Below are positions 4,285 to 55,757 of a stretch of 64,000 bases of DNA, one piece after another. Origin of the DNA: Candidatus Methylomirabilis sp. GTDB taxonomy: Bacteria > Oederibacteriota > PGYV01 > DYJU01. Positions within the stretch are counted from its first letter, which is position 1, and the number at the start of each line of letters is the position of its first letter. The translations under genes were made by a program, and so were the position numbers. The notes below the pieces were generated by a model. It was not told the DNA's origin. It searched no databases and saw nothing but the letters and a program-made list of their open reading frames with translations. Location: positions 4,943 to 68,942 of the forward strand of contig DYJU01000001.1 in assembly GCA_020722985.1 (NCBI GenBank). The letters run 5' to 3'.

Positions 4285-4617
4285 ACAAAATATATGAGGT
4301 GGCATATGTATAAAAAAAAGGGTAATAATTTTTATTTTTTTAATATTCTGGATAATTCCTGCATTTTTATTTTTTAATTTTAAAAAAATTTTTACAGTGA
4401 ATTTGCTATTGAATACAGGAGCATAATTGCGCCTTCCTTTGTTGAAAATAATACGACAGGCACTTCATATTTTTTAGGTAAACCGGGGATAGATATTTCA
4501 AAATGGGTAAATATATATGCCGGTCTTTCTTTTGCTTTTTTTGCTGAACATGCAAATAAACAGCATCATTTATATATCTAAAGTATATCAAATAAAAGAT
4601 TCATCACTAAAAAAATA

Positions 4618-4931
4618 GTAATGATTTAGCCACCAGGAGTAATTAAAAAGTTCGTATATTAAAAAAGACCTGGCGATGTCATTCTTAGGAAGCCGAAGTA
4701 GAAGTGAAGTGAGAAAAATAAGGGCGTATGAGGCTTAAGGAAGCAATCTGGCAGTTGAAAAACGAAAGAAGACAACACTAAAAGGCGATCGGTGATAAAA
4801 TCAAGATTGCTCTGTCAGCCTCATCAAACGGTAGAATAGAAGATAGAGGGAATCATTCGCCTGACAACGCAATGACAAATAAAAAATTTATTTATGGACC
4901 AATTTTGTTCTGCTAACGGCTAAACTATTAC
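4618..4931 (+). mobile_element. MITE-like repeat bounded by terminal inverted repeats, copy 1 (~315 bp)
   Basis: The 5' end reads GTAATGATTTAGCCACCAGGAGT and the 3' end reads AACGGCTAAACTATTAC. The conserved core is cattcttaggaagccgaag...aagcaatctggcagttgaaaaacgaaagaagacaa...gataaaatcaagattgctctgtcag...tcgcctgac...gcaatgacaaa. It contains no consistent ORF. Confidence 0.65.
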
Positions 4932-5012
4932 AAAAAATAAATTTTTGCATAGAAAAAAATTTTTATTTAATTTAAAATATTTAAAATATATTTAATTTAA
5001 CTGGAGGATAAA

Positions 5013-9009: not shown

Positions 9010-9044
9010 AAATTCTTTTTAGTTATAGGTATTATAGATTTTTT

Positions 9045-9362
9045 GTAATAGTTTAACCATCAGAAGCAACTTATGAAAGTTCATATATTAGTAAAAGCCC
9101 CTTGAAGTTGTCATTCTCAGGAAGCCGAAAGGGGAGAATGAAAAACAAATGGCGTATGAGAATTAACAAAGCAATATAGCAGTTGAAAGCATGAAGCAAA
9201 AAAGGTGAGAAGGCAATCGGTAATAAAAGCAAGATTGCTCTGTCAGTCTCATTTAACGATGGGGTTAAAAAATAGGGGTTATAGTTCGTCTGACTTTAAA
9301 ATGGAAAGGCAAAAAAATTTATTTATGGGCGAAATTTATTCAACCAGTAACTAAATTATTAT
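9045..9362 (+). mobile_element. MITE-like TIR-bounded repeat, copy 2
   Basis: It starts GTAATAGTTTAACCATCAGAAG, shares the family core, and ends CAACCAGTAACTAAATTATTAT. It lies between the RND pump stop and the tetR promoter. Confidence 0.65.
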
Positions 9363-9426
9363 AATTTTTAATTTATTTAACTGTCCGCCATGTCTTTCAT
9401 TATTCCCATTAACAATAAAATTTTAC

Positions 9427-9495: not shown

Positions 9496-10158
9496 ATGAA
9501 GGGGAAAAAAGAAAAAGAAAGTAAAAGGGATAAGATTTTAAATGCCGCAGCAGAAGAATTTATAGAATATGGTTTTTATGGTGCAAGAACGCAAAGAATT
9601 GCAAATAAAGCAAAAGTGAATAAAGCAATGCTCCATTATTATTTTTCAAGTAAAGAAAATATTTACAAAGAAGTTTTAAAAACAGTTTTTAATTTACTTA
9701 TAGAAAAATTAAATTCAATAAAAGTTGATGATAAAGAGGGTAGACCAGAAGAAAAAATGCGACAAATAATTGATGCCTATAATGAAGTTTTTAAAAATTA
9801 CAGTAATTATGTAAGATTGGTGATTTATGAAGTTATAACGGGCGGCAGATACATACAACAGATAATCTTTGAAAATATCAACAGGATTCCTTTTAATCCA
9901 TGGACAGGTAAGTTATATAAATACTTTGAAAAACAGATAAGAAAAGGTAATATAAGAAAACTTAATATAATTCAGATGCTTATAAGTTTAATAAGTCAGA
10001 TGGTGCCTGTTTATATAGCAAAACCTGTTGCTGAAAATATATTTAAAAAATTAGGACTTGATAAATTTATAATAGAAAAATTTATCAATAAGAGAAAAGA
10101 GTTTGTAATGGATATTCTAAAACATGGGATTTTTAAAAAAAGTAATAAAAGGAGATAA
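9496..10158 (+). CDS. TetR/AcrR-family transcriptional regulator (YbiH/CecR-like)
   Basis: It has an N-terminal helix-turn-helix typical of TetR (ILNAAAEEFIEYGFYGARTQRIANKAKVNKAMLHYYFSSKENIY). It is the first gene of a regulator, HlyD, ABC, ABC, ABC-2, ABC-2 operon. Confidence 0.8.
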   Translation: MKGKKEKESKRDKILNAAAEEFIEYGFYGARTQRIANKAKVNKAMLHYYFSSKENIYKEVLKTVFNLLIEKLNSIKVDDKEGRPEEKMRQIIDAYNEVFKNYSNYVRLVIYEVITGGRYIQQIIFENINRIPFNPWTGKLYKYFEKQIRKGNIRKLNIIQMLISLISQMVPVYIAKPVAENIFKKLGLDKFIIEKFINKRKEFVMDILKHGIFKKSNKRR

Positions 10159-10163
10159 AGTTT

Positions 10164-10967
10164 ATGGAACATAATTTGCCACCTTTAAAAATAAGATTGG
10201 CAGTAGTTTTTTCATTAATTTTGATTTTTACTTTAATTTATATTTTTTTAAAATGCGAGAGAAACACAGGAAAAATAGAGGCGATGGGGACAATAGAAAT
10301 AAAAGAAGTTGATATAACTTCGCGGGTAAATGCAAAAGTTGAAAAAATATTTTTTGATGAAGGGCAGGAGGTTAAAAAAGGCGATATTTTAATTAAATTG
10401 GAATCACGGGTTTATGAGGCACAATTTAATGCGGCAACATCATTATATAACAATGCACAAAAAAATTATGAAAGATCAAAAGAACTTTTTAAAGTAAATT
10501 CAATTTCGAGGCAGCAGTATGAGCAGGCAGAAGCAAATTTTTTATCTGCAAAGGCAAACTTAGAACAGGCAAAATTATTGTTTGAAGATACCCAACCCAA
10601 GGCGCCCTGGGATGGAATTATTTTAAAAAGGCATGGGGAAGAAGGCGAACTTATATCGCCTAATACTCCACTTTTTACAATAGGCAATTTAAAAGAAGTA
10701 AAAATTATAGTATATGTTTCGTTAAAAGATTTGGGAAAAATAAAATACGGGCAGATGGCAAAGATAAAAATAGATAGTTTTAAAAATAAAATTTATGAAG
10801 GAAAAATTACATTTATCTCTGATAAAGCTGAGTTTACCCCTAAAAATATTCAGACAAAAGATGAAAGAGTAAAACAGGTTTTTGCAGTGGAGGTAAGTGC
10901 TAAAAATGATAATTATGAGTTAAAACCCGGGATGCCATGCGATGTTATTATTGACATTGAAAAATAA
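10164..10967 (+). CDS. HlyD-family periplasmic adaptor for the ABC-type efflux system (YbhG-like)
   Basis: It has one N-terminal transmembrane helix, a coiled-coil segment (QQYEQAEANFLSAKANLEQAKLL) and a beta-barrel domain. Its position matches ybhG. Confidence 0.75.
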   Translation: MEHNLPPLKIRLAVVFSLILIFTLIYIFLKCERNTGKIEAMGTIEIKEVDITSRVNAKVEKIFFDEGQEVKKGDILIKLESRVYEAQFNAATSLYNNAQKNYERSKELFKVNSISRQQYEQAEANFLSAKANLEQAKLLFEDTQPKAPWDGIILKRHGEEGELISPNTPLFTIGNLKEVKIIVYVSLKDLGKIKYGQMAKIKIDSFKNKIYEGKITFISDKAEFTPKNIQTKDERVKQVFAVEVSAKNDNYELKPGMPCDVIIDIEK

Positions 10968-10969
10968 AA

Positions 10970-11881
10970 ATGGAATCAATCGTAAAAGTTCAGGATTTAA
11001 AAAAATATTTTGGTAATATAAAAGCAGTTGATGGGATTTCTTTTGAGGTGAAAAAGGGGGAGATTTTTGGACTTATAGGACCAGATGGAGCAGGAAAAAC
11101 AACAACTTTAAGAATATTAACTGGCCTACTTAATATAAATTCAGGTGAAGTTCAGGTTGCAGGTTTTTATCTCCCGCAGGATTCAGAAAAAGTAAAAGAA
11201 AATATAGGTTATATGCCACAAAAATTTAGTTTATATAATGATTTAACTGTAAAAGAAAATATCTCATTTTTTGCAGAAATTTTTGAAATAGATAAAAAAA
11301 TTCTCATGGAAAGGATGGAACCGCTTCTTGAGATGACACGACTTCATCCTTTTTCAGACAGATTAACTGGTAATTTATCAGGTGGAATGAAACAGAAACT
11401 TGCCCTGATGTGCACTTTGATACACAGACCTAAAATTTTAATACTTGATGAACCAACAATAGGGGTTGATCCGGTTTCAAGGCGTGAATTCTGGGAAATT
11501 TTACAGAATATTGTTGCAGAAGGGATAACTGTTATATTAAGTACACCTTATATGGATGAAGCAGAGTGGTGCACACATATAGGACTTATTTTTAAAGGAA
11601 AAATATTGCAGATTGATACACCTAAAAATTTAAAAAAGCAATTTCCTTTTAATGTTTTTGAAATTGAATTAAAAAATAACAGGGAAAAAGTAATTGAAAA
11701 AATAAATAATATTAAAGAAATTGTTGATGCAAAAATTTTAGGTAAAAAAATACGAGTTATTACAAAAATTGATGAAATAGTGTTTAATTTAAAAAAAGAT
11801 TTTTATGATGCAATTGAACTAAAAAAGGTTGAACCGGTTATAGAAGATATATTTATTACAAAAATAAAAACAGGACATTGA
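10970..11881 (+). CDS. ABC transporter ATP-binding protein (ABC-2 type exporter)
   Basis: Walker A is GPDGAGKTT, the signature motif is LSGGMKQKLAL, and Walker B is ILILDEPT. Confidence 0.85.
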   Translation: MESIVKVQDLKKYFGNIKAVDGISFEVKKGEIFGLIGPDGAGKTTTLRILTGLLNINSGEVQVAGFYLPQDSEKVKENIGYMPQKFSLYNDLTVKENISFFAEIFEIDKKILMERMEPLLEMTRLHPFSDRLTGNLSGGMKQKLALMCTLIHRPKILILDEPTIGVDPVSRREFWEILQNIVAEGITVILSTPYMDEAEWCTHIGLIFKGKILQIDTPKNLKKQFPFNVFEIELKNNREKVIEKINNIKEIVDAKILGKKIRVITKIDEIVFNLKKDFYDAIELKKVEPVIEDIFITKIKTGH

Positions 11882-11891
11882 GGAGATAAAA

Positions 11892-12809
11892 TTGCAGGAT
11901 ATAGTAGTTTATGCGGAAAATTTAACAAAAAAATTTGGCAATTTTGTTGCTGTTGATAATATTTGTTTTGAAGTAAAAAAAGGTGAAATATATGGTTTTT
12001 TAGGCGCAAATGGTGCAGGAAAAACAACTACCATAAGAATGTTATGTGGTTTAATTACTCCAACATCAGGAGATGGTTTTGTTTGTGGGTTCAGCATAAA
12101 AGAAAATCCTGAGGAGGTTAAAAAACGTATAGGATATATGTCGCAAAAATTTTCTTTATATAATATATTAACTGTCAGGGAAAATTTAGAATTTTACGGT
12201 GGCATCTATGGGCTTGATAGCGGTTTAATAAAAAAGAGGATAAAAGAAATTTCAGAAAAAATTGATTTAAAAGAAGAAATTGACAGATTGGTGGAAGATT
12301 TGCCTGGTGGGATAAAACAACGTGTTGCACTTGCGTGTGCATTGCTGCATGATCCGCAGGTAATTTTTCTTGATGAGCCGACAGCAGGCGTTGATCCGGT
12401 TTTAAGAAAAAAATTCTGGGATATAATTGATGAATTATCTTTACAGGGAAAAACAGTTTTTGTCACCACACATTATATGGATGAAGTTGAACATTGTCAT
12501 AGAATTGCTTTGATGGATGAAGGGAAAATAATAAAAGAGGGTAAAATAAATAAGATAAAAAATCAAGATTTTGATAAAAAAATTTATGAAATAACTGTTA
12601 GCGATCCAGTTACTGAATATAAAAAATTAATAAAAGAAAAAGAAAAAATTGGAGATATATCTTTACATGGTTCATACATACATATAATAACCGATTTTTT
12701 TAAAGAAAAATTAAAAGAGTTATTATCTGATAATAATGTAGATTTTTCTGAAATAAAGCAAATAAATCCGAGCATGGAAGATATTTTTATAAAACTTGTG
12801 AAAAAATAG
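11892..12809 (+). CDS. ABC transporter ATP-binding protein, second ATPase. It is equivalent to the second half of the fused YbhF.
   Basis: Walker A is GANGAGKTT, the signature motif is LPGGIKQRVALA, and Walker B is VIFLDEPT. Confidence 0.85.
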   Translation: MQDIVVYAENLTKKFGNFVAVDNICFEVKKGEIYGFLGANGAGKTTTIRMLCGLITPTSGDGFVCGFSIKENPEEVKKRIGYMSQKFSLYNILTVRENLEFYGGIYGLDSGLIKKRIKEISEKIDLKEEIDRLVEDLPGGIKQRVALACALLHDPQVIFLDEPTAGVDPVLRKKFWDIIDELSLQGKTVFVTTHYMDEVEHCHRIALMDEGKIIKEGKINKIKNQDFDKKIYEITVSDPVTEYKKLIKEKEKIGDISLHGSYIHIITDFFKEKLKELLSDNNVDFSEIKQINPSMEDIFIKLVKK

Positions 12810-12817
12810 GGGAAATA

Positions 12818-13969
12818 ATGGATATAAAGGAAATAAATTTTAAAAGGATGCTTACAATATTTTTAAAAGAGTTTGTGCATATAAAAAGAGATGCGAGGTC
12901 TTTAGCAATTACTTTATTCGCCCCTGTTATATTGTTAATTCTATATGGATATGCGGTTACTTTTGATATAAAAAAAATAGATTTAGGCGTTGTTGATTAT
13001 GATAAAACAAAAGAAAGCAGGGAATTGATTATAAAATTTTTATCTTCTTCCTATTTTGAATTAAAAGAATCTAAAGATATAAAATTATGCATTGCGGCTT
13101 TAAGGGTAAATAAAATAAAAGCAATTTTAGTTATACCTGAAAAATTTTCAACTGATTTTAAGAAAAATAAAGATGTAAAAATACAGTTTATATTAGATGG
13201 CTCAGATGCCAATACAGCAAACGTTGCCCTGGGTTATGCAAAGATAATAATTGCAACATATTCAAAGAATATAATACTTGAAAAGGTAAGAAAAAAAGGA
13301 ATTAATCCTAAAAATATACCTGCTTTAGAACCTGTAGAAAGAATTTTTTATAATTCGGAATTAAAAAGTACAAATTTTATTATACCCGGGCTCATTGCCA
13401 TACTTATGATGTTAATTGCTGCAACATTAACATCGTTAACTATAGTCAGAGAAAAGGAAAGGGGAACATTTGAGCAGTTAATATCAACACCTGCAAAACC
13501 AATGGAACTCATGACGGGAAAATTATTTCCCTATGTTATCATAGGATGCGTTGATGTTGTTTTAGTTACACTTTTTGGGCTTTTATGGTTTAAAGTGCCG
13601 TTTAAGGGAGATATTTTTACTTTTTCTCTTTTTACAATACTCTTTATTTTTTGCGCGATGGGCCAGGGATTATTTATGTCAAGTATAGCAAAGAATCAGA
13701 CCATAGCAGTAATTGCAACTGTTTTTTCTACTGTTTTACCTTCCATGTTGCTTTCTGGCTTTGTTTTTCCAATTGATTCAATGCCATGGATTATAAGGTT
13801 ATTGACCTACATAGTTCCTGCAAAATATTTTTTAACTGCTTTACGTTCTATTTTTTTAAAAGAAGGCGTGGGACTTAATATTCTTTATCCAGAAGCTTTG
13901 TTTCTTTTTGTATTTGGTATGGTATTTTTATTGCTTGCTGCAAAAAAATTTAAAAAAAATCTGGAGTGA
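12818..13969 (+). CDS. ABC-2 family transporter permease (YbhS/YhhJ-like)
   Basis: It has an N-terminal transmembrane helix, a large periplasmic loop and six C-terminal transmembrane helices, which is the ABC-2 fold. Its end overlaps the next permease gene in an ATGA arrangement. Confidence 0.75.
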   Translation: MDIKEINFKRMLTIFLKEFVHIKRDARSLAITLFAPVILLILYGYAVTFDIKKIDLGVVDYDKTKESRELIIKFLSSSYFELKESKDIKLCIAALRVNKIKAILVIPEKFSTDFKKNKDVKIQFILDGSDANTANVALGYAKIIIATYSKNIILEKVRKKGINPKNIPALEPVERIFYNSELKSTNFIIPGLIAILMMLIAATLTSLTIVREKERGTFEQLISTPAKPMELMTGKLFPYVIIGCVDVVLVTLFGLLWFKVPFKGDIFTFSLFTILFIFCAMGQGLFMSSIAKNQTIAVIATVFSTVLPSMLLSGFVFPIDSMPWIIRLLTYIVPAKYFLTALRSIFLKEGVGLNILYPEALFLFVFGMVFLLLAAKKFKKNLE

Positions 13970-15099
13970 AAATGAATAAACCTATTTTAGCAATTATAAA
14001 AAAAGAATTTATAGAAATAAAAAGAAGCCATCTTATTGCATTGCTTATTATATCTCCTATTTTGCAGGTTATTGTATTCGGGTATGTTGCCACAACAGAT
14101 ATAAAAAATGTAAAAACAGTGATATGTGACAGGGATAATTCTGAATTAAGCAGAAAACTAACGGGAAAATTTTTAAATTCAGAATATTTTAAGGTAGTTG
14201 CATATACCCGTAATGAAAAAGATATAGATGAATTTATTAAAAGCAATAAGGCAGTTATAGGCATTTATATACCTGAAAAATTTTCAGAAAATATTAAAAG
14301 AACAAAAAAAACTCCTGTGCAAATAATAATAGATGGAACTGATTCAAATATGTCAACGATAAGTTTGAGCAGAACAGTTATGATAATAAATGCTTTTTCA
14401 GAAGATTGTTTTAAACAGAAAATGGAAATAATGAAAAAAATAATAGGTGGGCTTCCGTCTTTGAGTATGGAAGAACGAATCTTTTTTAATACCGAATTAA
14501 AAAGCGCAAATACAATGGTGCCTGGAGTTGTTGGACTTATTTTAACAATAGTTACGCTTGCAATAACTGCTGTTGCAATAGTGAGAGAAAAAGAAACAGG
14601 CAATATTGAGCAGATTATTGTAACTCCTGTAAAACCAGCAGAAATAATCGCAGGAAAAGTAATACCATATATTTTAATTGCTCTGTTAGACATTGTTTTA
14701 ATAACATTAACAAGTATTTTTATTTTCAGAATAAGTTTTGAAGGCAGTTTTACTTTGCTTGTTGCTTTATCATTTTTTTTGATTCTGGCAAATTTAGGAA
14801 TTGGGATTTATGTTTCAACTATTTCTTCAACCCAACAGCAAGCATTGCTTTCTTCTATTTTTTTTGCAGTGCCAAGTATTTTATTGTCTGGTTTTTTATT
14901 TCCTATAAAAAATATGCCGGAAATTTTGCAACTGCTCACCTTTTTTATACCGATGAGATATTATATGGTGATTTTGCGGGGAATATTTTTAAAAGGACTT
15001 GGCTTTATGGAACTTTTACCACAGACGCTTGCGTTATTCGTTTTTGGAGTAATTATTTTTATTGTTGCAATAAAGCAGTTTAGAAAACAGATAGGGTAA
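13966..15099 (+). CDS. ABC-2 family transporter permease (YbhR-like)
   Basis: It is a paralogue of the preceding permease with the same topology. Confidence 0.75.
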   Translation: MKMNKPILAIIKKEFIEIKRSHLIALLIISPILQVIVFGYVATTDIKNVKTVICDRDNSELSRKLTGKFLNSEYFKVVAYTRNEKDIDEFIKSNKAVIGIYIPEKFSENIKRTKKTPVQIIIDGTDSNMSTISLSRTVMIINAFSEDCFKQKMEIMKKIIGGLPSLSMEERIFFNTELKSANTMVPGVVGLILTIVTLAITAVAIVREKETGNIEQIIVTPVKPAEIIAGKVIPYILIALLDIVLITLTSIFIFRISFEGSFTLLVALSFFLILANLGIGIYVSTISSTQQQALLSSIFFAVPSILLSGFLFPIKNMPEILQLLTFFIPMRYYMVILRGIFLKGLGFMELLPQTLALFVFGVIIFIVAIKQFRKQIG

Positions 15100-15294
15100 A
15101 AATATTGTTGATCTTAGAATATTAGTTAGCGGTTAAAAAATCATATAGAATTACTTACTATAGATTAAAAAGAGTCGGTAAACGAATCTCATACAATAGA
15201 TAAAAAAATTTATGATTTGCGGTTCGGGGTTTATAAATAAAAATAACTTTTTTGAATTTGTATTATTTAAATATTATTTATTTTTATTCAACAC

Positions 15295-15322
15295 TTGACA
15301 GGGGAGGGTAGTATGCTATAAT
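15295..15322 (+). promoter_or_regulatory. Near-consensus sigma70 promoter: TTGACA, 16-bp spacer, TATAAT
   Basis: The exact sequence is ttgacaggggagggtagtatgctataat. It points toward the methyltransferase gene about 250 bp downstream. Confidence 0.4.
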
Positions 15323-15578
15323 TTTTATAATTGTTACAAGATAGTGAAAAAAATTTTTTAAATACATTAAAAAAACTTTAATTATTAATTATCGCAAACA
15401 ATTTTGTTGACTTGAGGAATCTGAATTTTACGTTTTTTTTAAAGGAAAAAATGAAAAAAAAGTCAAATATAAACAAAAAAGAAAAGAAAAATATTTTGTA
15501 AAAGAAAATTTTTTAACTACAATTGAATATAATAATGGAAGAAAAATAAAAAATAGTGAAGAAAATAAGCAAGTAACA

Positions 15579-16412
15579 ATGCATAATCTGGTTATAGTAG
15601 ACAAAGAAGATGAAAATTATTCTTTTGATAAAATTTCAAATAAAGTTATTTTAGGTGATTGTTTTAAAGTAATGAAAAGGTTGCCTTCCGAATTTGCCGA
15701 TTGTGTCTTTGTTGATCCCCCTTATTTTTTGCAACTCCCACCTAAAAAATTATTAAGGTGGACCGGTAGCATAGTTGATGGTGTAAATGACAAGTAGGAT
15801 ATTTTTAAAGATTTTGATGATTATGATAATTTTACAAAAAATTATTTGACGGAAATTAAAAGATTAATGAAACCCAATGCAACTATCTGGATTATAGGGA
15901 CATATCATAATATTCATAGAATTGGAAAGATAATGTTAGATTTGGGCTTTTGGATTTTAAATGATATAATATGGTTTAAGACAAATCCAATGCCTAATTT
16001 TTTAGGCGTTAGATTTACAAATGCTACAGAAACTTTACTTTGGGCTGTAAAAGATAAAAAAATAAAAAAATATACTTTTAATAAAGAAATTGCCAGAAGT
16101 TTCAATGGCGGTAAATTGGGAATAAATGTATGGCAAATACCGCTTTGCACTGGACGGGAGAGATTAAGAAATGAAAAAAAGGAGAAAATACATTCAACAC
16201 AAAAACCACAAGAATTATTAAGAAGAGTTATTTTAACATCTACAAAAGAAAATGATGTTATTTTTGACCCGATGGCTGGCACTGGAACAACTGGATTTAT
16301 GGCAAAAAAATTAAATCGTAAATTTGTAATGATAGAAAAAAATAAAGATTACGTTGATGCCATTGTTAAAAGATTTGAGACAGAATTTAATTCTTTATTA
16401 TTTAAAACATGA
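15579..16412 (+). pseudogene. Beta-class (DPPY) N6-adenine or N4-cytosine DNA methyltransferase of the CcrM/M.HinfI type, interrupted by a single in-frame TAG
   Basis: ORFs 15579-15797 and 15846-16412 lie in the same reading frame. Only the TAG at 15795-15797 separates them. Motif IV (VFVDPPY) comes first, then IWIIGTYHNI..FWILNDIIWFKTNPMPNF, then the C-terminal SAM-binding FDPMAGTGTTG. The TAG falls where CcrM-like enzymes have Trp (DEWDKF against DK*DIF), which fits a TGG to TAG change. Confidence 0.65.
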
Positions 16413-17275
16413 ATTATAAAAATTTTTGTTTAATTTTAAATAAACATATTTTTGAAGATGAAAAAAAAGAATTATTAAAAAATATCTCTGAAAGGCCAGA
16501 GCGTTTTATCGGATTGTTCAGACCTACAAAACCTGGTGCTAAAATTCTTCAACATATTTTGTAATCACACGAAATCAGATTTGGCGATGCTTTTGAAGAG
16601 TTAATAGGAGAAATTTTAAGAGAGTGTGGGTTTGTAATTCATAATAAAACAATTACTGATGAAAATGGAAATTTTTTATCATTGGATCAATATTATGAAA
16701 TAAATGAGATTTATTATTTTATTGAACAGAAAGTAAGGGATGATCATGACTCTACTAAAAAACGAGGACAAATCTCTAATTTTGAATCAAAATTAGAGAT
16801 ATTGTATAAAAAACACAAAGAGAAACTTGTTGGGATTATGTATTTTATTGATCCAGAACTTTCAAAAAATAAAAATTATTATTTGCCTGAATTAAATAAA
16901 TTATGTAAATTTTATGATGTTAAAACTTATTTGTTTTATGGAAAAGAATTATTTAATCATCTTGGCAGGTCAGATTTATGGAATCATATTCTCTCCTGGT
17001 TGAAAGAATGGAAAGACAGCTTACCGGAAATCCCGGAAATTGATTTTGATAAAACGCCAGAAAAAAGTTTTGAACAATTGAAAGAATTACCAATTAGATA
17101 TTGGCGTAAGGTATTAGAAAATGAAAAATTATGGACAGAAGGAATTGTTAAAGCAATTTTTAGAAAAGGCGAAGTACTAAAATTATTATTAGAATATTTT
17201 AAACAACAAAAAGACAAGCCACACATTGAATTATCAAAATTGCTAAAGGATTTATTAAAAAAATATTATGGTTAA
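16409..17275 (+). pseudogene. Probable cognate type II restriction endonuclease gene, interrupted by an in-frame TAA. Specific function is unassigned.
   Basis: Its ATG at 16409 overlaps the methyltransferase TGA in an ATGA arrangement. A 51-codon N-terminal segment ends at a TAA at 16562-16564. The listed ORF 16682-17275 continues in the same frame, and the frame is already open from 16565. Position directly after a methyltransferase is typical of an R-M pair, but no catalytic motif was recognised. Confidence 0.35.
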
Positions 17276-17344
17276 TTGCTTATCAAACGAGTTAAAAATC
17301 TGCATTATTTCAGAAAAATTCTCAAATACCTAAAATAATAAAAA

Positions 17345-17742
17345 GTAATAGTTCAACTTCCAGAAGTTCGTTTATAAAAGTTCATATATTAGCAGAAAAC
17401 TCTTGAAGACGGACTTCTTAGGAAGCCAAAAGAAAAGTGTAAAAGATTAAATAAGGATTAATGTGAGCCAGACGAAGCAATTTTGCAGTTAAAAAACGAA
17501 AGAAGACAACACTAAAAGGCGTCAGGTGATAAAAGCAAGATTGCTTTGTCGGGTTCAATTAAACGAGGGAATAGAAGACAAAGGGGTTTGTTCGTCTGAC
17601 ATTTAGAAGGTAGAGACGCCCATCCTTGGGCGTCTACACCCGGGGAATAGAAGATAAAGGAATTCATTCACCTGACTTTAAATGACAGAACAAAAAATTT
17701 ATATATGGGTAAAATTTATTCAATCAGCAACTAAATTATTAT
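17345..17742 (+). mobile_element. MITE-like TIR-bounded repeat, copy 3, carrying an internal ~75-bp duplication
   Basis: It starts GTAATAGTTCAACTTCCAGAAGT and ends CAGCAACTAAATTATTAT. The segment gaatagaaga..cctgac is duplicated inside it and includes a perfect hairpin, agacgccca-tcct-tgggcgtct, at 17605-17626. Confidence 0.65.
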
Positions 17743-17808
17743 AATTTTTAACTTCTTTAATCGTGCATCCTATATTTCCTTATTCCTCAACCTGTGCAAT
17801 TTTTTTAC

Positions 17809-17835
17809 TTGACAAATTATACGATAGCGTATAAA
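17809..17835 (+). promoter_or_regulatory. Promoter (TTGACA, 15-bp spacer, TATAAA) ending 8 bp before the ATG of the AAA ATPase gene, which suggests a leaderless transcript
   Basis: The sequence is ttgacaaattatacgatagcgtataaaATGtc... No Shine-Dalgarno sequence precedes the ATG at 17844. Confidence 0.35.
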
Positions 17836-17843
17836 ATGTCATT

Positions 17844-19097
17844 ATGAAATTAAAAAGGACAATATATAAAAGCATTATACGAGGAATAAAACGCAAAGAA
17901 ATATCAATAATTATAGGTCCAAGACAGGTCGGTAAAACAACACTGCTTAATGAAGTGGCCGGGCATTGCGTTAAAAATAAATTAAAATATAAATATTTTA
18001 ACCTTGAAATGCCTGCTGATGCCGCTTATTTTGCGCAAAATTTTGGGGTCCTATTAAAAGAACTATGCGCTGAAAAAAACATTATTTTGATAGATGAATT
18101 TCATTACCTTCCTAATGCAACGAAATTATTTAAAACTGTATATGACGGTTATCAAGGGATTAAAATAATAGCATCCGGTTCATCCGCATTGGAAATGCAT
18201 AAGCACATGAAAGAGAGTCTGGCAGGAAGGCGGATTATTCACAAAGTTTATCCTTTGTCTTTTGATGAATGGCTTCCTTCAAAAACAAAAAATCAACTAC
18301 TTCCTCGCAGCATCAAAGAAAAAACCAATAATATATTTCATAAAAAAATTAAAAAATATTTTAATGAATTTTTAATTTATGGTGGTATGCCAGGGCTTGT
18401 GCATGAAAAAAACTCTTCAGACAAAAAAAGATTGTTGATAGACTTTGTCTCAACATATATACAAAAAGACGTTAAATCCTTATTAAGAGAAGAAGACGTG
18501 CTTTCTTTTAATAGATTAATTGCCCTTTTGGCTGCAAACGAAGGAGGATTATTAAGTGAAAATGCGGTATCGGGAAACCTTAATTATTCATTAAGACAGG
18601 TACGTAAAGATCTGGCAATTTTAAATCAAATGTTTTTACTTTACAGTTTGAAACCTTTTTCCACAAATAGGGGAAGAGAATTAAAACAAACTGTTAAAAC
18701 GTATTTTTTTGATTCTGGAATAAGAAATGCGATTATAAATGATTTTAGAAGTGTTAAATCGCGGGAAGATAAAGGTGCGTTATTTGAATCATTTGTTTTT
18801 AATGAAATACAAAAAAATATAAAAATAGGACAGGATATTTACTATTGGCGAACAAGGCAGAAGGACGAAGTGGATTTTGTGCTCGTTCAGGATAGAATGC
18901 CCGTGGCAATTGAAGTAAAATCTAATATTTATAATGACGAAGTTCCACATGGGATAAAGCGGTTCATTGATGTTTATCCAGAATGTAAAACTGCAGTGGT
19001 TTTAAATAGCGATTATTATGGTAAGACAACGTATAAAGGTAAAAAAATTATATTTGCACCACATTATTATGCACATTTACTACCAGATATTTTTTAA
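17844..19097 (+). CDS. AAA+ ATPase with a C-terminal DUF4143 domain (the archaeal-ATPase-like AAA_14 plus DUF4143 family)
   Basis: Walker A is GPRQVGKTTLL and Walker B is IILIDEFHY. The C-terminal region (YYWRTRQKDEVDFVL) is typical of DUF4143 proteins. Confidence 0.7.
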   Translation: MKLKRTIYKSIIRGIKRKEISIIIGPRQVGKTTLLNEVAGHCVKNKLKYKYFNLEMPADAAYFAQNFGVLLKELCAEKNIILIDEFHYLPNATKLFKTVYDGYQGIKIIASGSSALEMHKHMKESLAGRRIIHKVYPLSFDEWLPSKTKNQLLPRSIKEKTNNIFHKKIKKYFNEFLIYGGMPGLVHEKNSSDKKRLLIDFVSTYIQKDVKSLLREEDVLSFNRLIALLAANEGGLLSENAVSGNLNYSLRQVRKDLAILNQMFLLYSLKPFSTNRGRELKQTVKTYFFDSGIRNAIINDFRSVKSREDKGALFESFVFNEIQKNIKIGQDIYYWRTRQKDEVDFVLVQDRMPVAIEVKSNIYNDEVPHGIKRFIDVYPECKTAVVLNSDYYGKTTYKGKKIIFAPHYYAHLLPDIF

Positions 19098-19166
19098 CTA
19101 TCTTTGCTTAAAGGAACGAGCATAAATCCGCGGATGGTAAATGCGAAGGAGGGGGTTAAATTTAAC

Positions 19167-19488
19167 GTAATAGTTAAGCCACTAGAAGTGAATTTGTAAA
19201 AGTTTGGCTACTAGTAAGGAAACACTTGGCGATGTCATTGCGAGGAAGCCGAAAGAAAAGTGTAGAAAGAAAAATAAAAAGCGGACGAGGCTGACGAAGC
19301 AATCTGGCAGTTGAAAAACGGAAGCAGACAAGGTGAGAAAGCATCATGTGATAAAATCAAGATTGCTTTGTCGGGCGGGAGTTAACTGTGGAATAAAATG
19401 CATAAGTTATCGTTCGCCTGACTTTAAAATGACAGAACAAAAATTTATTTATAGACTGATTTTATTTTATTGGTGGCTAAACTATTGC
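19167..19488 (+). mobile_element. MITE-like TIR-bounded repeat, copy 4
   Basis: It starts GTAATAGTTAAGCCACTAGAAGT and ends TGGTGGCTAAACTATTGC. The internal ORF 19333-19542 is not conserved in frame among copies. Confidence 0.65.
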
Positions 19489-19604
19489 AAATCTCTCTTT
19501 AACTGTTTACCATGTCTATCCTTATTCCCAGTAAAAATATAAAAATATTTGTAAAATTTATTTATTTTGTTATACTTATATAAGTAAATTTCAAGGAGGT
19601 AAAA

Positions 19605-20811: not shown

Positions 20812-23436
20812 ATGAAAAAAAATTTCATTTTGGCTTTAATAATAAATATATTCTCAACTCATATTTTTTCTGCAAATATAACTTCTGTTTCAAATGTTCA
20901 GATAATTCCATCTAATCCATCCCCAGGACAGACAGTTGAGGTAAGATGGGACTATTATGTTGATTCTGAATATAATAATCCGCATGCACTTGTAGTTGTA
21001 TCCGATACAAATACTTTAAGACCAGCAAATACATCAGGGCAGTGGGTTATGATAGGGAATGGCTGCATAACGCCACCAAATCCTGAATCAGCACAGGTTA
21101 CTGGCGGATGCAGTTTAGGCAATAATATTTCACCGGCAGGCACTCATTCTTCCATAGAAAGTGGGACATACACTTTCACTTTGCCATCTACTTTGATTCC
21201 TGGTTATACGTATTATATTATTGTTGGAATGAAAGATTACAATGTTTATATGAATCCAAGCGTTGATGTCAGTGCACAAAATTATTTTCAGTTTACAATA
21301 CCGCTACCACCACCTACCATCCAATTAAGTAAAGTAGCCGAAGGTTCTGCTGCACAGCCAGGTGGTTATGTGCTTTATACAATTTATTATTATATAGCAA
21401 ATACAAATAATGTAGTAATAACAGATGATATTCCAGCAAATGTAACATGTGTGGAAGTTTACGATGGTGGAACCTGTGGCAATCCAATAACATGGAATTT
21501 AGGTAATATTTCAATTCCAGTAAGGGGAAGTGTGTCATGGCTCGGGCAGATAAGTGGATCAGTTTCTCAGGGAACAGTAATACATAATACAGCACAGGGC
21601 ACGAGTAATGAGACGAGTGCTACATCAAATGATGCTACTGTAACAATTGGTGCATCACTTGAAATAAATAAAGGTGCGGTTTCAAATGCTGTACAGGTTG
21701 GAGATACGATAACTTATGTCTTAACTTATACAAATAGCGGATTTGCACTTTCAGAATATGTTGACTTTTCAACTCCTGCAACAGAACCAATTCCAGGGTG
21801 GACAGAAGAAGTTACAGGCGCAACATGGCAGATAATTGGCGGGTATTTACAGGCGACAGGTCCCGGCGGTCAGTGGGGTAAACTTATTAAAAATACACCA
21901 TCTTTACATGATGCTATGTATATAACAGATATATATGTACCATCAAGTAATACTTCGGGTGATGCTGTTTTTATTTTTAATTTTATTGATCAGGGAAATA
22001 TGTATCATGCGAGAATACAATCAGATGCAAATCAGGTTTGTTTTGATAGGGTTCTTTCAACCACATGGTCTCAATTACAATGTGCGACTCCAAGTGGTTT
22101 TTCAATTCAGAATGACAGATGGTATACGATGAAAGTGGCTGTGCAGGGTTCAAATATCAGAATAAAAGCATGGCCCAAAGGCGAATCTGAGCCAGTTAAC
22201 TGGCAGATAAATTATACAGAATCTTCTCTACCTCTATCTGGTAGACCAGGATATCAGGATAATGAAGGAGAAGATAGATTTGATAATTTGAAAATTTTTG
22301 TACCAGCACCTGCAACAAATGTTGTAATCTGGGATACAGTTCCTGATTGCACAACTTATCTTTCCTGTATTGGCGGAACATCATGTGATCATACAGGCGC
22401 AAGTCCAGATGTTGTTTACTTTAATCTCGGGAACTTAGGATATCAATATGGACAAATAACTTTTACAGTAAGGACAGAAGCATGTGCAGGCGGAACTTAC
22501 GTAAATAATACAGCATGTATAGATTCAACTGAACCAGCACCGGAGGTTTGCTCAAATATTGCAACTGTTGCAGTAGGTTCTGTTGCAACAGAAACATTTA
22601 CATCCACAAGCACTTTTACACCCACATCCACGAATACATTTACTTTTACATATACAAATACAATAACAAATACGCCGACAAATACTAATTCTCCAACAGA
22701 AACAAACACAGCAACAGATACCAGAACACAAACTGCAACATTTACTTTTACAAATACAGGGACACCAACATCAACAAGCACACCACAACCAGCGAATATC
22801 GCACTTATATTAGAAGCAATTGATACAACGACAACCTCTGGCGGTTATGCAAAGTTTAAAATAACAATAAAAAACACAGGGAGTGATGCATTTGATGTGA
22901 TATTATGGGATTCGATTCCTTCTGATGCTTTGTTTGATGTAAATTATTTTGAAAATACTGGCTGGTCATTAAATGAAAATGTTTTTTATAAAAACATATC
23001 ATCTGTATCAGCAGGAGAGACAAGAACATTTTATTTTAATTTAAAAACTTCTGAGGGGTTATCGACAGGTCATTTAATTTATGTATCACCTGTATTATCA
23101 AGTTATAGTGATATTTTAAATCCAATTGCTTATGCAGTTAGTAATCCTGTTGTCATATCTGTCGGTGAGATAGTTGTATATCCTAATCCATTTAATCCTG
23201 AAACTGCGAAGGGAAATGTTTTAAAATTCGCGAATATACCAAGAAATGCAAAAATTATGATATATACTATTTCAGGAGAGCTGATAAAAGTATATACCGC
23301 ATTGAGTGCTTATGTATTCTGGGATGGAACCAATGCCTTTGGGGATAAAGTTTCTCCGGGAATATACTATTATATTATTACATGGGATGAAGGGAAAAAG
23401 ATAAAGAAGGATAAGATTTTTGTGATAGGACAATGA
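20812..23436 (+). CDS. Secreted 874-aa surface protein. It has DUF11-like repeats, a LamG or lectin-like segment, a Thr-rich TxT linker and a T9SS-type C-terminal sorting domain.
   Basis: It has a signal peptide. The TxT linker runs TFTSTSTFTPTSTNTFTFTYTNT... The C-terminus (VVYPNPFNPETAKGNVLKFANIP...VFWDGTNAFGDKVSPGIYYYIITW) resembles the C-termini of the genes ending at 1710 and 48787. Confidence 0.6.
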   Translation: MKKNFILALIINIFSTHIFSANITSVSNVQIIPSNPSPGQTVEVRWDYYVDSEYNNPHALVVVSDTNTLRPANTSGQWVMIGNGCITPPNPESAQVTGGCSLGNNISPAGTHSSIESGTYTFTLPSTLIPGYTYYIIVGMKDYNVYMNPSVDVSAQNYFQFTIPLPPPTIQLSKVAEGSAAQPGGYVLYTIYYYIANTNNVVITDDIPANVTCVEVYDGGTCGNPITWNLGNISIPVRGSVSWLGQISGSVSQGTVIHNTAQGTSNETSATSNDATVTIGASLEINKGAVSNAVQVGDTITYVLTYTNSGFALSEYVDFSTPATEPIPGWTEEVTGATWQIIGGYLQATGPGGQWGKLIKNTPSLHDAMYITDIYVPSSNTSGDAVFIFNFIDQGNMYHARIQSDANQVCFDRVLSTTWSQLQCATPSGFSIQNDRWYTMKVAVQGSNIRIKAWPKGESEPVNWQINYTESSLPLSGRPGYQDNEGEDRFDNLKIFVPAPATNVVIWDTVPDCTTYLSCIGGTSCDHTGASPDVVYFNLGNLGYQYGQITFTVRTEACAGGTYVNNTACIDSTEPAPEVCSNIATVAVGSVATETFTSTSTFTPTSTNTFTFTYTNTITNTPTNTNSPTETNTATDTRTQTATFTFTNTGTPTSTSTPQPANIALILEAIDTTTTSGGYAKFKITIKNTGSDAFDVILWDSIPSDALFDVNYFENTGWSLNENVFYKNISSVSAGETRTFYFNLKTSEGLSTGHLIYVSPVLSSYSDILNPIAYAVSNPVVISVGEIVVYPNPFNPETAKGNVLKFANIPRNAKIMIYTISGELIKVYTALSAYVFWDGTNAFGDKVSPGIYYYIITWDEGKKIKKDKIFVIGQ

Positions 23437-24459: not shown

Positions 24460-24574
24460 AGAGTTTCAGATTTATGAATAAGGATCAGGGATTGAATATT
24501 TAGAATATTGATAGGTATTTAGCGATTTAAGGATTAAATAGTTAATGCTATAAGTATTAGAAAAAATATTGAGA

Positions 24575-24902
24575 GTAATAGTTCGGATACCAGAGGTAAT
24601 TTATAAAAGTGCATATATTAGAAAAAAACTCTTGAAGGCGTTGATGGAAGAAAGCCGAAAAAGAATGGTGGAATGGGAAATAAGGGTAACGGGTAACGGA
24701 AGGATTAATAAAGCAATCTTGCAGTTTAAAAATGAAAGAAGACAAGGCGAAAAGGCAACCGTAAATAAAATCAAGATTACTTTGTCATGCAAAATTTAAG
24801 GTGTAATAGTAGATAAATGGACCCATTCACCTGACTTTAAAATGACAAAGCGAAAAATTTATATCTGGACTAATTTTGTTTTACCAGTGGCTAAACTATT
24901 AC
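24575..24902 (+). mobile_element. MITE-like TIR-bounded repeat, copy 5
   Basis: It starts GTAATAGTTCGGATACCAGAGGT and ends TACCAGTGGCTAAACTATTAC. The ORFs 24569-24799 (+) and 24557-24745 (-) are artefacts within it. Confidence 0.65.
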
Positions 24903-24939
24903 AATTTACAATAAAGATAATTTAAAAGGATAGAATTTA

Positions 24940-27105: not shown

Positions 27106-27111
27106 TTTTAT

Positions 27112-27431
27112 GTAAAAATTTAGTCACCAGAGGTAATTTACAAAAGTTCAGATATTAGTAAAAAACTCTTGAAGACGGCCTTCTTAGGAATCCGAAAGAG
27201 AAGCGTAGAAAGAAAAATAAAGGGCGGACGAGCAAAATGAAGCAATCTTGTAATTGTATAGCGGCAAGAAAACTAAGCTAAAAAACAATCGGTAATAAGA
27301 GCAAAGATTATTTTTAAGGTGGGAGTTAACTGTGAAATAAAAGACAAAAGGGCTTGTTTGCCTGACTTTAAAATGACAACAAAAAATTTATTTATTGGCA
27401 AATTTTATTATGCTAGTGGTAAAATTATTGC
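27112..27431 (+). mobile_element. MITE-like repeat, copy 6, with a degenerate 5' TIR
   Basis: The 5' end is GTAAAAATTTAGTCACCAGAGGT. The core is conserved (ggaatccgaaagagaag...aagcaatcttgtaattg...). The 3' end is GCTAGTGGTAAAATTATTGC. Confidence 0.55.
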
Positions 27432-27615
27432 ATATATTTTATAGGGAGGAACCCTTTTTGAAAAGTCCACACAATATTATACATTAACCAGTGGGAAAAT
27501 ATTGCGTAAATTCTAATTTTTGGCTATAATTATTTAATAAATAAATTTTAAAAATCTGTTCTATTTGAGGCTAAACTATTATCAGTATTGAAATATTCAT
27601 TAAGGAGGTTATATT

Positions 27616-28044: not shown

Positions 28045-28110
28045 TTTTTGATGATACAGTTCAAGAATTGTGTGGAAAAATTAATTAACATAAAAGGGTG
28101 CGCCTTGCCA

Positions 28111-28499
28111 GTAATGGTTCAGCCGCCAGAAGTGAACTTGGAAGAGTGTGGCTACCATTAAGTAAATATATGGCATTGTCATTTTTAGGAAGCCGAAAGA
28201 GGAATGTAAAATGGGAAATAAGGATAATATGAGCCGAATGAAGCAATCTTGCAGTTGAAAAACGAAAGAAGACAATATTAAAAGGCGATCGGTAGTAAAA
28301 AGCAAGATTGCTTTGTCAGGCGATAGTGAATGTATAAAAAATATAGGTTATCATTCGCTTTGCTTTAAAATGACAACGGAAAAAATTTAATGATTAATTT
28401 TGTTCTACCAGTGGCTAAGCTATTACCCTGATTTTGCAATGAAAGAGCGAAAAATTTATATCTTAACAAATTTTATTTTACCAACGGCTATACTGTTAC
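28111..28499 (+). mobile_element. MITE-like repeat, copy 7 (28111-28426), followed by a tandem partial duplicate of its 3' end (28427-28499)
   Basis: It starts GTAATGGTTCAGCCGCCAGAAGT. Its first 3' end is CTACCAGTGGCTAAGCTATTAC. The partial unit then repeats gcaatgaaagagcgaaaaatttatat...CCAACGGCTATACTGTTAC. Confidence 0.6.
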
Positions 28500-48787: not shown

Positions 48788-48828
48788 AAACTTTACCGAT
48801 TGTCAATGCTGGTTGATATAACAAAGAC

Positions 48829-49154
48829 GTAATAGTTTTGCCATTAGAAGTCCACTTGTAAAAGTATGGCTACTAGTAAGGAAAACCCTAACTATTGTCA
48901 TTCTTAGGAAGCCGAAAGAGAAGTTAAGAAGAGGAAATAAGGGCGGACGGACGAGCCAGACGAAGCAATCTGGCAGTTGAAAAACGAAAGAAGACAAGAT
49001 AAAAAGGCGCTCAGGTATAAAAGCAAGATTGCTTTGTCAGACTCATTAAACGGAGGAATAGAAGTCAGAAGTTATCGTTTGCCTGACTTCGCAATGACAA
49101 AGTAAAAAATTTATTTATTGACCAATTTTGTCCTATCAGTGGCTAAAATGTTAC
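48829..49154 (+). mobile_element. MITE-like TIR-bounded repeat, copy 8
   Basis: It starts GTAATAGTTTTGCCATTAGAAGT and ends ATCAGTGGCTAAAATGTTAC. Confidence 0.65.
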
Positions 49155-49317
49155 TAATATTTTATTAATACTATTATTTTATAAAAAAGGGCAATCTTTT
49201 TTAATTATTTTCCCCTTTCTATTACAATTTTAACGGATACAGAACATGCTTTTTAAAATCAATAAACTATGATAAAATAAAAATCAAATTTATATTTAAT
49301 TCAGGAAGGAAAGAAAA

Positions 49318-54992: not shown

Positions 54993-55105
54993 TATTTTAA
55001 AAAAATAATTTAGACTTTTTTGTTTTGTTTGCATTTTATAAAGTGTAACAGAATTTTAAAGGAAATGGGTAAAGTTAAAAACTGCCTTTATATTTCAGAA
55101 TAATA

Positions 55106-55428: not shown

Positions 55429-55439
55429 AAAAAGAAGTC

Positions 55440-55531: not shown

Positions 55532-55757
55532 AAATTTAATAAAAAAAAGAGATATAACTTACTTTGTGGCTTCTTACCTGTAGGGCAAGAAAAATCTCTT
55601 TTCCCTATGGAGGGGTTTTGAATTGGAAATAAAAAATTTATTTTTAAAATTTATAGGGACATACAGGAATAATTTATACCCATGGAACAACGTTTTATAT
55701 ACTTTTAAAAATATAATACTGTATGAAATAGACTCAGTTTTAAAATGGGTTAAAAAT

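What the first reader, a model, noticed from the sequence alone, without database searches (positions are those of the whole stretch)
15534..17275. Decayed type II R-M pair: a DPPY methyltransferase with TAG at a conserved Trp and the adjacent endonuclease-like gene with an in-frame TAA
The methyltransferase at 15579-16412 is one continuous frame. Only the TAG at 15795 breaks it, exactly where CcrM/M.HinfI-like enzymes carry Trp in DEWDKF, which fits TGG to TAG. The downstream gene starts with an ATGA overlap, as expected for an R-M operon. A single TAA at 16562 interrupts it, and the frame is otherwise open from 16409 to 17275. Single nonsense changes in both partners look like recent inactivation of the restriction gene followed by relaxed selection on the methyltransferase. 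Sequencing errors are an alternative. A strong TTGACA-16-TATAAT promoter at 15295 is still in place.
Basis: partly seen in the sequence, partly recalled or inferred. Interest (0 to 1): 0.55.

Follow-up and report, generated by a model that had tools for sequence, protein, structure and literature searches.

The report
Broken GANTC restriction-modification gene pair
This is an ordinary bacterial restriction-modification gene pair (a DNA methylase and its DNA-cutting partner, most likely specific for GANTC) that was recently switched off by single stop-codon mutations in both genes plus a one-base deletion at the methylase start.

Summary
Window 15451-17275 holds a co-oriented methyltransferase-endonuclease pair. 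The methyltransferase is a beta-class N6-adenine enzyme (PF01555) whose catalytic domain closely resembles CcrM. The downstream gene is an HpyAIV-family type II restriction endonuclease and scores above NCBIfam's curated cut-off. Both point to GANTC. The TAG at 15795-15797 replaces a Trp present in 118 of 118 homologues. The TAA at 16562-16564 replaces a Gln present in 116 of 118. I found a third lesion: the ancestral start (ATG 15451, with a Shine-Dalgarno sequence) is followed by an A8 tract one base short of the closest intact relative, so it is out of frame. The lesions are not assembly noise: three other public assemblies of this genome carry an identical R-M region. Recoding is unlikely, because TAA, TGA and TAG all end ordinary genes in the window. 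Inactivation is recent: dN/dS against intact relatives is 0.07-0.12, and conserved columns show no excess change. The host resembles Candidatus Goldbacteria. Interest is low. A nine-copy MITE-like intergenic repeat nearby is more unusual.

The parts
15295..15322 (+). Sigma-70-type promoter TTGACA-16-TGcTATAAT, 129 nt upstream of the ancestral methyltransferase start
   Evidence: 12 of 12 consensus matches with a TG extended -10. It is the best site in 15000-17900. Function is not tested.
15443..15461 (+). Ancestral translation start of the methyltransferase: Shine-Dalgarno AGGA (15443-15446), ATG (15451-15453) and an A8 tract (15454-15461). The tract is 1 nt shorter than in the closest intact homologue, so this ATG is out of frame and its frame ends at TAA 15499-15501.
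   Evidence: L005 (encoding P0241) reads ATG AAA GAA AAA GCA AGA TAT; the window reads ATG AAA AAA AA- GTC AAA TAT. tblastn aligns P0241 residues 13-317 to window 15486-16403 in the methyltransferase frame.
15453..16412 (+). Methyltransferase pseudogene: beta-class N6-adenine enzyme (PF01555) with a CcrM/M.HpyAIV-like catalytic domain. The first in-frame canonical start is ATG 15579.
   Evidence: PF01555, E 4.6e-56. CcrM structure 6PBD, E 1.1e-79. PADLOC MTase_II, E 7.5e-108; 82-84% identity to the closest intact homologues of about 295 aa.
15714..15725 (+). Catalytic motif IV, DPPY (GAT CCC CCT TAT)
   Evidence: D46, P47, P48 and Y49 are invariant in alignment A2.
15795..15797 (+). In-frame TAG replacing TGG (Trp)
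   Evidence: Trp in 118 of 118 homologues.
16263..16295 (+). AdoMet-binding motif I, FDPMAGTGTTG, downstream of motif IV (beta-class order)
   Evidence: D230, P231, A233, G234, T237, T238 and G239 are invariant.
16409..17275 (+). Restriction endonuclease pseudogene, HpyAIV family. Its ATG overlaps the methyltransferase TGA (ATGA).
   Evidence: NF045832, 236.8 bits against a cut-off of 160. PADLOC REase_II, E 2.3e-74; 1778 homologues, the best 81% identical. AlphaFold2 model with pLDDT 84; the top Foldseek hits are PD-(D/E)XK nucleases.
16562..16564 (+). In-frame TAA replacing CAA (Gln) in the conserved ILQSHEI block
   Evidence: Gln in 116 of 118 homologues.
16685..16732 (+). Putative PD-(D/E)XK catalytic residues D93 ... 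E106-Q-K108, intact and downstream of the stop
   Evidence: D93, E106 and K108 are invariant in alignment A1. Their assignment as catalytic residues is inferred from the motif pattern and the fold.

Best explanation
This is a recently inactivated type IIP restriction-modification system of the HpyAIV / CcrM-like kind.

Inferred function when intact (not tested here):
- The methyltransferase would transfer a methyl group from AdoMet to N6 of the adenine in GANTC on both strands.
- The PD-(D/E)XK endonuclease would cut unmethylated GANTC in incoming DNA.

State in this genome. Both genes are dead, with three lesions:
1. A 1-nt deletion in an A-tract directly after the ancestral methyltransferase start.
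2. TGG to TAG at a universally conserved Trp, between motif IV (DPPY) and the rest of the methyltransferase.
3. CAA to TAA at codon 52 of the endonuclease, upstream of its catalytic D...EXK residues.
Both substitutions are GC-to-AT transitions, the expected kind in a genome of about 30% G+C.

Timing and order:
- Apart from the lesions the sequences look like those of working relatives, so the loss is recent.
- The usual logic of R-M addiction says the endonuclease had to be lost first, or together with the methyltransferase. That order is inferred, not shown.
For: Identity:
- Methyltransferase: PF01555, E 4.6e-56. CcrM structure 6PBD matches over residues 22-262 at E 1.1e-79.
- Endonuclease: NCBIfam 'HpyAIV family type II restriction enzyme', 236.8 bits against a cut-off of 160. 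PADLOC gives REase_II and MTase_II.
- M.HpyAIV (hp1352) methylates GANTC (m6A, type IIP, beta class) according to PMC3936762.
- Intact relatives form M-R or C-M-R cassettes with genes of 295 and 287-294 aa.

Lesions:
- TAG falls at a Trp present in 118 of 118 homologues, and TAA at a Gln present in 116 of 118.
- The A8 tract is 1 nt shorter than in L005, which encodes P0241.

Real, not artefact:
- The R-M region is base-for-base identical in JGI 3300000227, NCBI GCA_973628015.1 and Logan SRR1559028.
- The NCBI contig differs from the window at 13 substitutions and 2 indels over its 20.5 kb; the nearest lie about 165 nt past the endonuclease stop.

Standard genetic code:
- The window's long + strand frames end in TAA 19 times, TGA 9 times and TAG 3 times.
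- The window has no tRNA genes.

Recent:
- dN/dS against intact relatives is 0.10-0.12 for the methyltransferase and 0.07-0.08 for the endonuclease, at dS of 0.6-1.7.
- At near-invariant columns the endonuclease has 2 deviations and the methyltransferase 1. Among intact homologues, 19% and 32% have at least as many.
- No other + strand gene in the window is interrupted.
Against: - No read-level data were available. The four assemblies may share samples, so a minority of cells with intact alleles cannot be excluded.
- The near-perfect conservation outside the lesions would also fit continued purifying selection, meaning the genes are still used in some way.
- GANTC is not depleted in the window: 121 sites against 133 +/- 9.7 expected. 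This argues neither for nor against past activity.
- The N-terminal extension removed by the frameshift is not conserved across the family, and some homologues start where ATG 15579 lies. That lesion alone may not be inactivating.
- Local Pfam scans did not reproduce the precomputed PF09520 label, even for intact homologues.
Confidence: 0.88

Rival explanations
1. The stops and the short A-tract are sequencing or assembly errors, and the genes are intact in the organism.
For: The source is metagenomic. Homopolymer length (A8 versus A9) is a classic error site. No reads were available.
Against: Three further public assemblies have an identical R-M region, and one differs from the window at SNPs and indels elsewhere. 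Two independent substitutions that both create stops, in adjacent genes, with no other + strand gene interrupted, is not the pattern of random error.
Confidence: 0.03
2. The genes are still expressed. Possible routes are stop-codon readthrough or suppression, a two-piece methyltransferase, or reversible switching (phase variation) at the A8 tract.
For: Apart from the lesions both ORFs are as well conserved as working homologues. A perfect promoter and a Shine-Dalgarno sequence with ATG remain. An A8 homopolymer directly after the start codon resembles known phase-variation tracts in R-M genes (my own knowledge).
Against: TAG and TAA are ordinary terminators of neighbouring genes. Restoring function would need TAG read as Trp and TAA read as Gln, and no known code does both (my own knowledge). 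There is no tRNA in the window. All four assemblies show A8, so no length variation was seen. Even with A9 the TAG would still truncate the enzyme. The TAG removes an invariant Trp and separates motif IV from motif I.
Confidence: 0.04
3. The decay is old, and the pair is a long-standing fossil rather than a recent loss.
For: The lesions are shared by all the assemblies found, so they predate the divergence of those variants.
Against: There are only three lesions and no further stops. dN/dS is about 0.1. Substitutions at conserved columns are not in excess. The assemblies differ by only about 0.03-0.1%, so sharing the lesions says little about their age.
Confidence: 0.05

Closest known systems
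HpyAIV R-M system of Helicobacter pylori (M.HpyAIV hp1352, with the adjacent R.HpyAIV); recognises GANTC
   Same: The endonuclease passes NCBIfam's HpyAIV equivalog cut-off. The methyltransferase is a beta-class m6A enzyme of type IIP architecture, as M.HpyAIV is described in PMC3936762. The two genes are adjacent and co-oriented.
   Different: The host is an uncultured Goldbacteria-like bacterium. Both genes carry nonsense mutations. Specificity is inferred here, not measured.
CcrM of Caulobacter (PDB 6PBD), a GANTC m6A methyltransferase
   Same: The catalytic domain aligns over residues 22-262 at E 1.1e-79, including DPPY, the Trp lost here, and motif I.
   Different: CcrM is an orphan cell-cycle regulator with an extra C-terminal domain. 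The window protein lacks that domain, scores 345 against the equivalog cut-off of 830, and sits next to an endonuclease gene.
HinfI R-M system (GANTC)
   Same: Same presumed target and same M-R logic. The precomputed Pfam label for the endonuclease homologues is PF09520, 'HinfI'.
   Different: The NCBIfam HinfI-family model scores only 18 bits against a cut-off of 175. The endonuclease is not a HinfI-family member in that classification.
Mutationally inactivated R-M systems and orphan methyltransferases left after endonuclease loss, for example in H. pylori
   Same: R-M genes are disrupted by point mutations. Orphan methyltransferases that have lost their endonuclease are described for H. pylori in the abstract of PMC8706393.
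   Different: Here the methyltransferase is also broken, so it has not been kept as an orphan.
C-protein-controlled C-M-R cassettes in the closest intact relatives (L006, L010-L012)
   Same: The M and R genes are 78-84% identical in protein sequence and in the same order.
   Different: No HTH controller gene or remnant lies upstream in the window. The closest methyltransferase relative, L005, also lacks one and carries a Lys-rich N-terminal extension instead.

Membership tests
Beta-class N6-adenine/N4-cytosine DNA methyltransferase (Pfam PF01555) | Profile match above the gathering score | tested here: met
   190.7 bits against a cut-off of 26.7, covering profile positions 2-220 of 221 (Trp restored at the stop).
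Beta-class N6-adenine/N4-cytosine DNA methyltransferase (Pfam PF01555) | Motif IV (DPPY) lies N-terminal to AdoMet motif I (FxGxG) | tested here: met
   DPPY at residues 46-49 and FDPMAGTGTTG at 229-239; both blocks are invariant in homologues.
Beta-class N6-adenine/N4-cytosine DNA methyltransferase (Pfam PF01555) | Uninterrupted reading frame that encodes a full enzyme | tested here: not met
   TAG at 15795, and the ancestral start is frameshifted.
CcrM equivalog (NCBIfam NF050803) | Score at or above the curated cut-off (full-length orthologue with the C-terminal domain) | tested here: not met
   345 bits against a cut-off of 830. Only profile positions 3-249 of 350 are matched.
GANTC-specific methyltransferases (CcrM, M.HinfI, M.HpyAIV) | Methylates the adenine of GANTC | not testable with these tools
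   Inferred only, from the 6PBD similarity and the HpyAIV-family partner.
HpyAIV family type II restriction enzyme (NCBIfam NF045832) | Score at or above the curated equivalog cut-off | tested here: met
   236.8 bits against a cut-off of 160, covering profile positions 1-267 of 269 (Gln restored at the stop).
HpyAIV family type II restriction enzyme (NCBIfam NF045832) | PD-(D/E)XK nuclease fold and motif | tested here: inconclusive
   D93, E106 and K108 are invariant. The AlphaFold2 model has pLDDT 84. The top Foldseek PDB hits are EcoO109I, Can2, R2 endonuclease domains and XisH, but only at E about 6e-3 and TM about 0.4. No relative with a solved structure was found by sequence.
HpyAIV family type II restriction enzyme (NCBIfam NF045832) | Uninterrupted reading frame | tested here: not met
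   TAA at codon 52.
HinfI family type II restriction enzyme (NCBIfam NF045831) | Score at or above the curated cut-off | tested here: not met
   18.1 bits against a cut-off of 175.
Type II R-M operon | Adjacent, co-oriented methyltransferase and endonuclease genes with matching specificity families | tested here: met
   ATGA overlap at 16409-16412; relatives show the same M-then-R order.
Phase-variable R-M system | Homopolymer or short repeat tract in the 5' coding region whose length varies between cells or strains | tested here: inconclusive
   The A8 tract after ATG 15451 is present, but all four assemblies have A8. Read-level variation could not be tested.

The most novel reading that the evidence does not exclude
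The interrupted pair is not dead. It could be kept in a switchable or partly functional state, for example by A8/A9 slippage at the start combined with low-level readthrough, or by fragments that still act, such as a two-piece methyltransferase or an endonuclease fragment that retains the catalytic core. That would explain why the sequence is otherwise pristine and why the perfect promoter and the Shine-Dalgarno sequence with ATG are retained.
Probability: 0.03. Interest if true: 0.5.

Novelty: new member of a known kind. Interest (0 to 1): 0.12.

Why it matters
It matters little beyond annotation. The locus is a clean, datable example of how a mobile type II R-M cassette dies in an uncultured, AT-rich lineage: GC-to-AT nonsense transitions and a homopolymer slip. 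For annotators, the four short ORFs called here (72, 181/188, 51 and 197 aa) should be merged into two pseudogenes. For methylome work on this organism, this locus predicts no GANTC methylation. If GANTC methylation were found with no other GANTC methyltransferase in the genome, the case would become interesting.

Tried and rejected
- Alternative genetic code. Rejected: TAA, TGA and TAG all terminate normal genes, and the window has no tRNA genes.
- Other broken genes as a sign of a poor assembly or genome-wide decay. None found on the + strand. The apparently ORF-free 55.4-64 kb region is one giant ORF that runs off the window.
- Remnant of a controller (C) protein upstream. tblastn with C proteins from relatives found nothing in 15000-17400.
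- GANTC avoidance as a footprint of past restriction. Not significant: 121 sites against 133 +/- 9.7 expected.
- An intact allele at the same locus in relatives.
  - The genome-contig scan gave one relative, 59% identical.
  - The metagenome-contig scan gave nothing.
  - The best protein hits are 81% (endonuclease) and about 85% (methyltransferase) identical, in other genomic contexts.
- Pfam PF09520 membership. Local hmmscan gave no hit even for intact homologues, although precomputed tables list it. I relied on NCBIfam and PADLOC instead.
- The nearby intergenic repeat as a structured RNA. Rfam gave no match to the repeat copies. RNAalifold found essentially no covariation apart from the terminal inverted repeat. 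An exact-pattern scan of metagenome contigs found no copies.

Full report
**Observation.**
- The frame from ATG 15579 to TGA 16410-16412 has one internal stop, TAG at 15795-15797.
- The frame from ATG 16409 to TAA 17273-17275 has one internal stop, TAA at 16562-16564.
- The two genes overlap in ATGA.
- A 12-of-12 sigma-70 consensus promoter with a TG extended -10 lies at 15295-15322.
- On the + strand, which carries almost all genes of the window, no other long coding frame is split by a single stop.

**What the genes are.**
- The upstream protein, with Trp restored, matches PF01555 at E 4.6e-56.
- It aligns to the catalytic domain of the GANTC methyltransferase CcrM (PDB 6PBD) over residues 22-262 at E 1.1e-79. 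The alignment includes DPPY, the Trp in question and motif I.
- It falls well below the CcrM equivalog cut-off (345 against 830 bits), because it lacks CcrM's C-terminal domain. It is CcrM-like but not a CcrM orthologue.
- The downstream protein has 1778 homologues; the best is 81% identical.
- It scores 236.8 bits against NCBIfam's 'HpyAIV family type II restriction enzyme', cut-off 160. It scores only 18 bits against the HinfI family model, cut-off 175.
- PADLOC calls the pair REase_II and MTase_II.
- M.HpyAIV (hp1352) is a type IIP beta-class m6A enzyme for GANTC (PMC3936762).
- An AlphaFold2 model of the endonuclease has pLDDT 84. Its best PDB matches are EcoO109I and other PD-(D/E)XK nucleases, but these are weak.
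- D93, E106 and K108 are invariant in the family.
- GANTC specificity is therefore well supported by homology but was not measured.

**The lesions.**
- Across 118 full-length homologues of each protein, the TAG column is Trp in 118 and the TAA column is Gln in 116 (alignments). The changes are TGG to TAG and CAA to TAA, both GC-to-AT transitions.
- I found a third lesion.
  - The closest methyltransferase relative is P0241 (317 aa, intact, on contig L005). Its Lys-rich N-terminal extension is encoded in the window, in the methyltransferase frame, back to about 15453.
  - That stretch has no canonical in-frame start codon.
  - The ancestral ATG at 15451, preceded by AGGA, is followed by A8. L005 has the equivalent of nine positions there, which puts the window's ATG out of frame; its frame ends at TAA 15499.
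  - Some family members begin near the position of ATG 15579, so this lesion alone might not be inactivating.
- The ATGA overlap is itself derived. Relatives have TAA, two bases, then ATG. The window has lost that TAA and reads two codons further.

**Artefact or recoding?**
- The R-M region is identical in a JGI contig (3300000227), an NCBI MAG contig (GCA_973628015.1) and a Logan assembly (SRR1559028).
- The NCBI contig differs from the window at 13 substitutions and 2 indels over its 20.5 kb. The nearest lie about 165 nt past the endonuclease stop.
- I cannot prove that these assemblies come from independent samples.
- All three stop codons terminate ordinary neighbouring genes: the window's long + strand frames end in TAA 19 times, TGA 9 times and TAG 3 times. 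The window has no tRNA genes.
- Function would require TAG read as Trp and TAA read as Gln together, and no known code does that (my own knowledge).

**Age.**
- Nei-Gojobori dN/dS against intact relatives is 0.10-0.12 for the methyltransferase and 0.07-0.08 for the endonuclease, at dS of 0.6-1.7. Intact-against-intact pairs give 0.04-0.14.
- At columns that are nearly invariant in the family, the window deviates twice in the endonuclease (E223Q, I224L) and once in the methyltransferase (G201K), not counting the stops. Among intact homologues, 19% and 32% have at least as many deviations.
- Almost all of the lineage's history was therefore spent under purifying selection, and the loss is recent.
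- The order 'endonuclease first' follows from the known lethality of losing the methyltransferase while the endonuclease is still active. It is inference.

**Context.**
- Intact relatives are C-M-R or M-R cassettes in unrelated neighbourhoods. One identical cassette occurs in three different contexts, once next to a serine recombinase. The system is therefore mobile.
- The window has no controller gene or remnant, and neither does L005.
- The G+C content of the two genes (28% and 26%) matches the window (30%).
- GANTC is not depleted in the window: 121 sites against 133 +/- 9.7 expected.
- The host's MutL is 54-57% identical to proteins named Candidatus Goldbacteria or Goldiibacteriota, with closer unnamed relatives.
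- The next gene downstream (17844-19097, AAA_14/DUF4143) matches the PADLOC candidate defence family PDC-S01. The remnant therefore sits in a small defence-type neighbourhood.

**Verdict.** This is an ordinary, recently decayed HpyAIV-type (GANTC) type II R-M pair.
- the methyltransferase start is also frameshifted;
- the endonuclease belongs to the HpyAIV family, not the HinfI family;
- no relaxed-selection signal is visible yet.

Interest is low.

**Side observation.** The window contains at least nine copies of an intergenic repeat.
- The core is about 330 nt. All copies are on the + strand, each in a gap just upstream of a gene or operon. One lies 68 nt after the endonuclease stop.
- It has terminal inverted repeats: GTAATAGTTnAGCCAC at one end and GTGGCTAAACTATTAC at the other.
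- Rfam gave no match to the repeat copies, and there is no covariation beyond the terminal helix.
- It is absent upstream of mutL in sister species. There the orthologous gap is 40-60 nt in L014 and L015, against 530 nt in the window.
- It behaves like a lineage-specific MITE-like element. I did not characterise it further.

Noticed in passing
window 4616-4940, 9043-9372, 17343-17752, 19165-19498, 24573-24912, 27110-27441, 28109-28436, 48827-49164, 55104-55438 (all + strand): A dense family of intergenic repeats of about 330 nt (60-88% identical), each just upstream of a + strand gene or operon. It has roughly 16-nt terminal inverted repeats (GTAATAGTTnAGCCAC / GTGGCTAAACTATTAC) and several conserved internal blocks. 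Rfam gave no match to the repeat copies, and RNAalifold found no covariation beyond the terminal helix. It is absent at the orthologous site upstream of mutL in sister species L013-L015 and was not found by an exact 24-mer scan of metagenome contigs. It looks like a lineage-specific MITE-like element. No transposase partner or target-site duplication was identified.
   Followed up: partly
window 17427-17520 region of copy e17343 (alignment A6 columns 276-350): The repeat copy next to the endonuclease pseudogene carries a 75-nt insertion. It contains a G+C-rich hairpin (GGTAGAGACGCCCATCCTTGGGCGTCTACACC) and a partial internal duplication of the repeat.
   Followed up: no
window 17844-19097 (+): The gene immediately downstream of the R-M remnant (417 aa, AAA_14 + DUF4143) matches the PADLOC candidate single-gene defence family PDC-S01 at E 2.6e-86. 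The locus may be a small defence island.
   Followed up: partly
window 55584-64000 (+), repeats at about 57284-58000: One giant ORF of more than 2800 codons runs off the window end, with a higher G+C content (38-41%). It has a long internal array with 12-nt periodicity (37 staggered copies), which suggests a Thr/Val-rich repeat domain. It is not listed by the ORF tool because it is open-ended.
   Followed up: partly
window 20812-23436 (+) versus L002 14946-17828; window 24684: There are differences between assemblies of the same genome. The CHU_C/DUF11-like surface protein is 874 aa in the window and 960 aa in the NCBI MAG, through a repeat-region length difference near 22650-22690. There is also a 7-bp indel (GGGTAAC) at 24684 inside a repeat copy.
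   Followed up: no
L010, L011, L012 (C-M-R cassette at 4888-6864 in L010 and L011): The identical endonuclease (P0009), with its methyltransferase and a 72-aa HTH controller gene, occurs in three different genomic neighbourhoods. An RNase H-like gene always follows it, and in L011 a serine recombinase lies next to it. This is evidence that the cassette is mobile.
   Followed up: no
L006-L009, gene before the methyltransferase (L006 5000-5098): In the closest endonuclease relatives, the controller (HTH_3) gene is called as only 32 aa. It may itself be truncated.
   Followed up: no
Endonuclease protein and its homologues P0001, P0009: Precomputed tables list PF09520 (HinfI) for every homologue, but a local hmmscan of the current Pfam-A copy finds no PF09520 hit at E <= 1, even for intact proteins. 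This may be a version or library discrepancy.
   Followed up: partly
window 9496-15099 (+): Upstream of the R-M remnant lies an operon of TetR, a membrane-fusion protein, two ABC ATPases and two ABC-2 permeases. The two ATPase genes share a 154-nt stretch that is 72% identical. The operon plus the R-M pair is bracketed by two repeat copies (e9043, e17343) that share an extra 3' extension of 83% identity.
   Followed up: no
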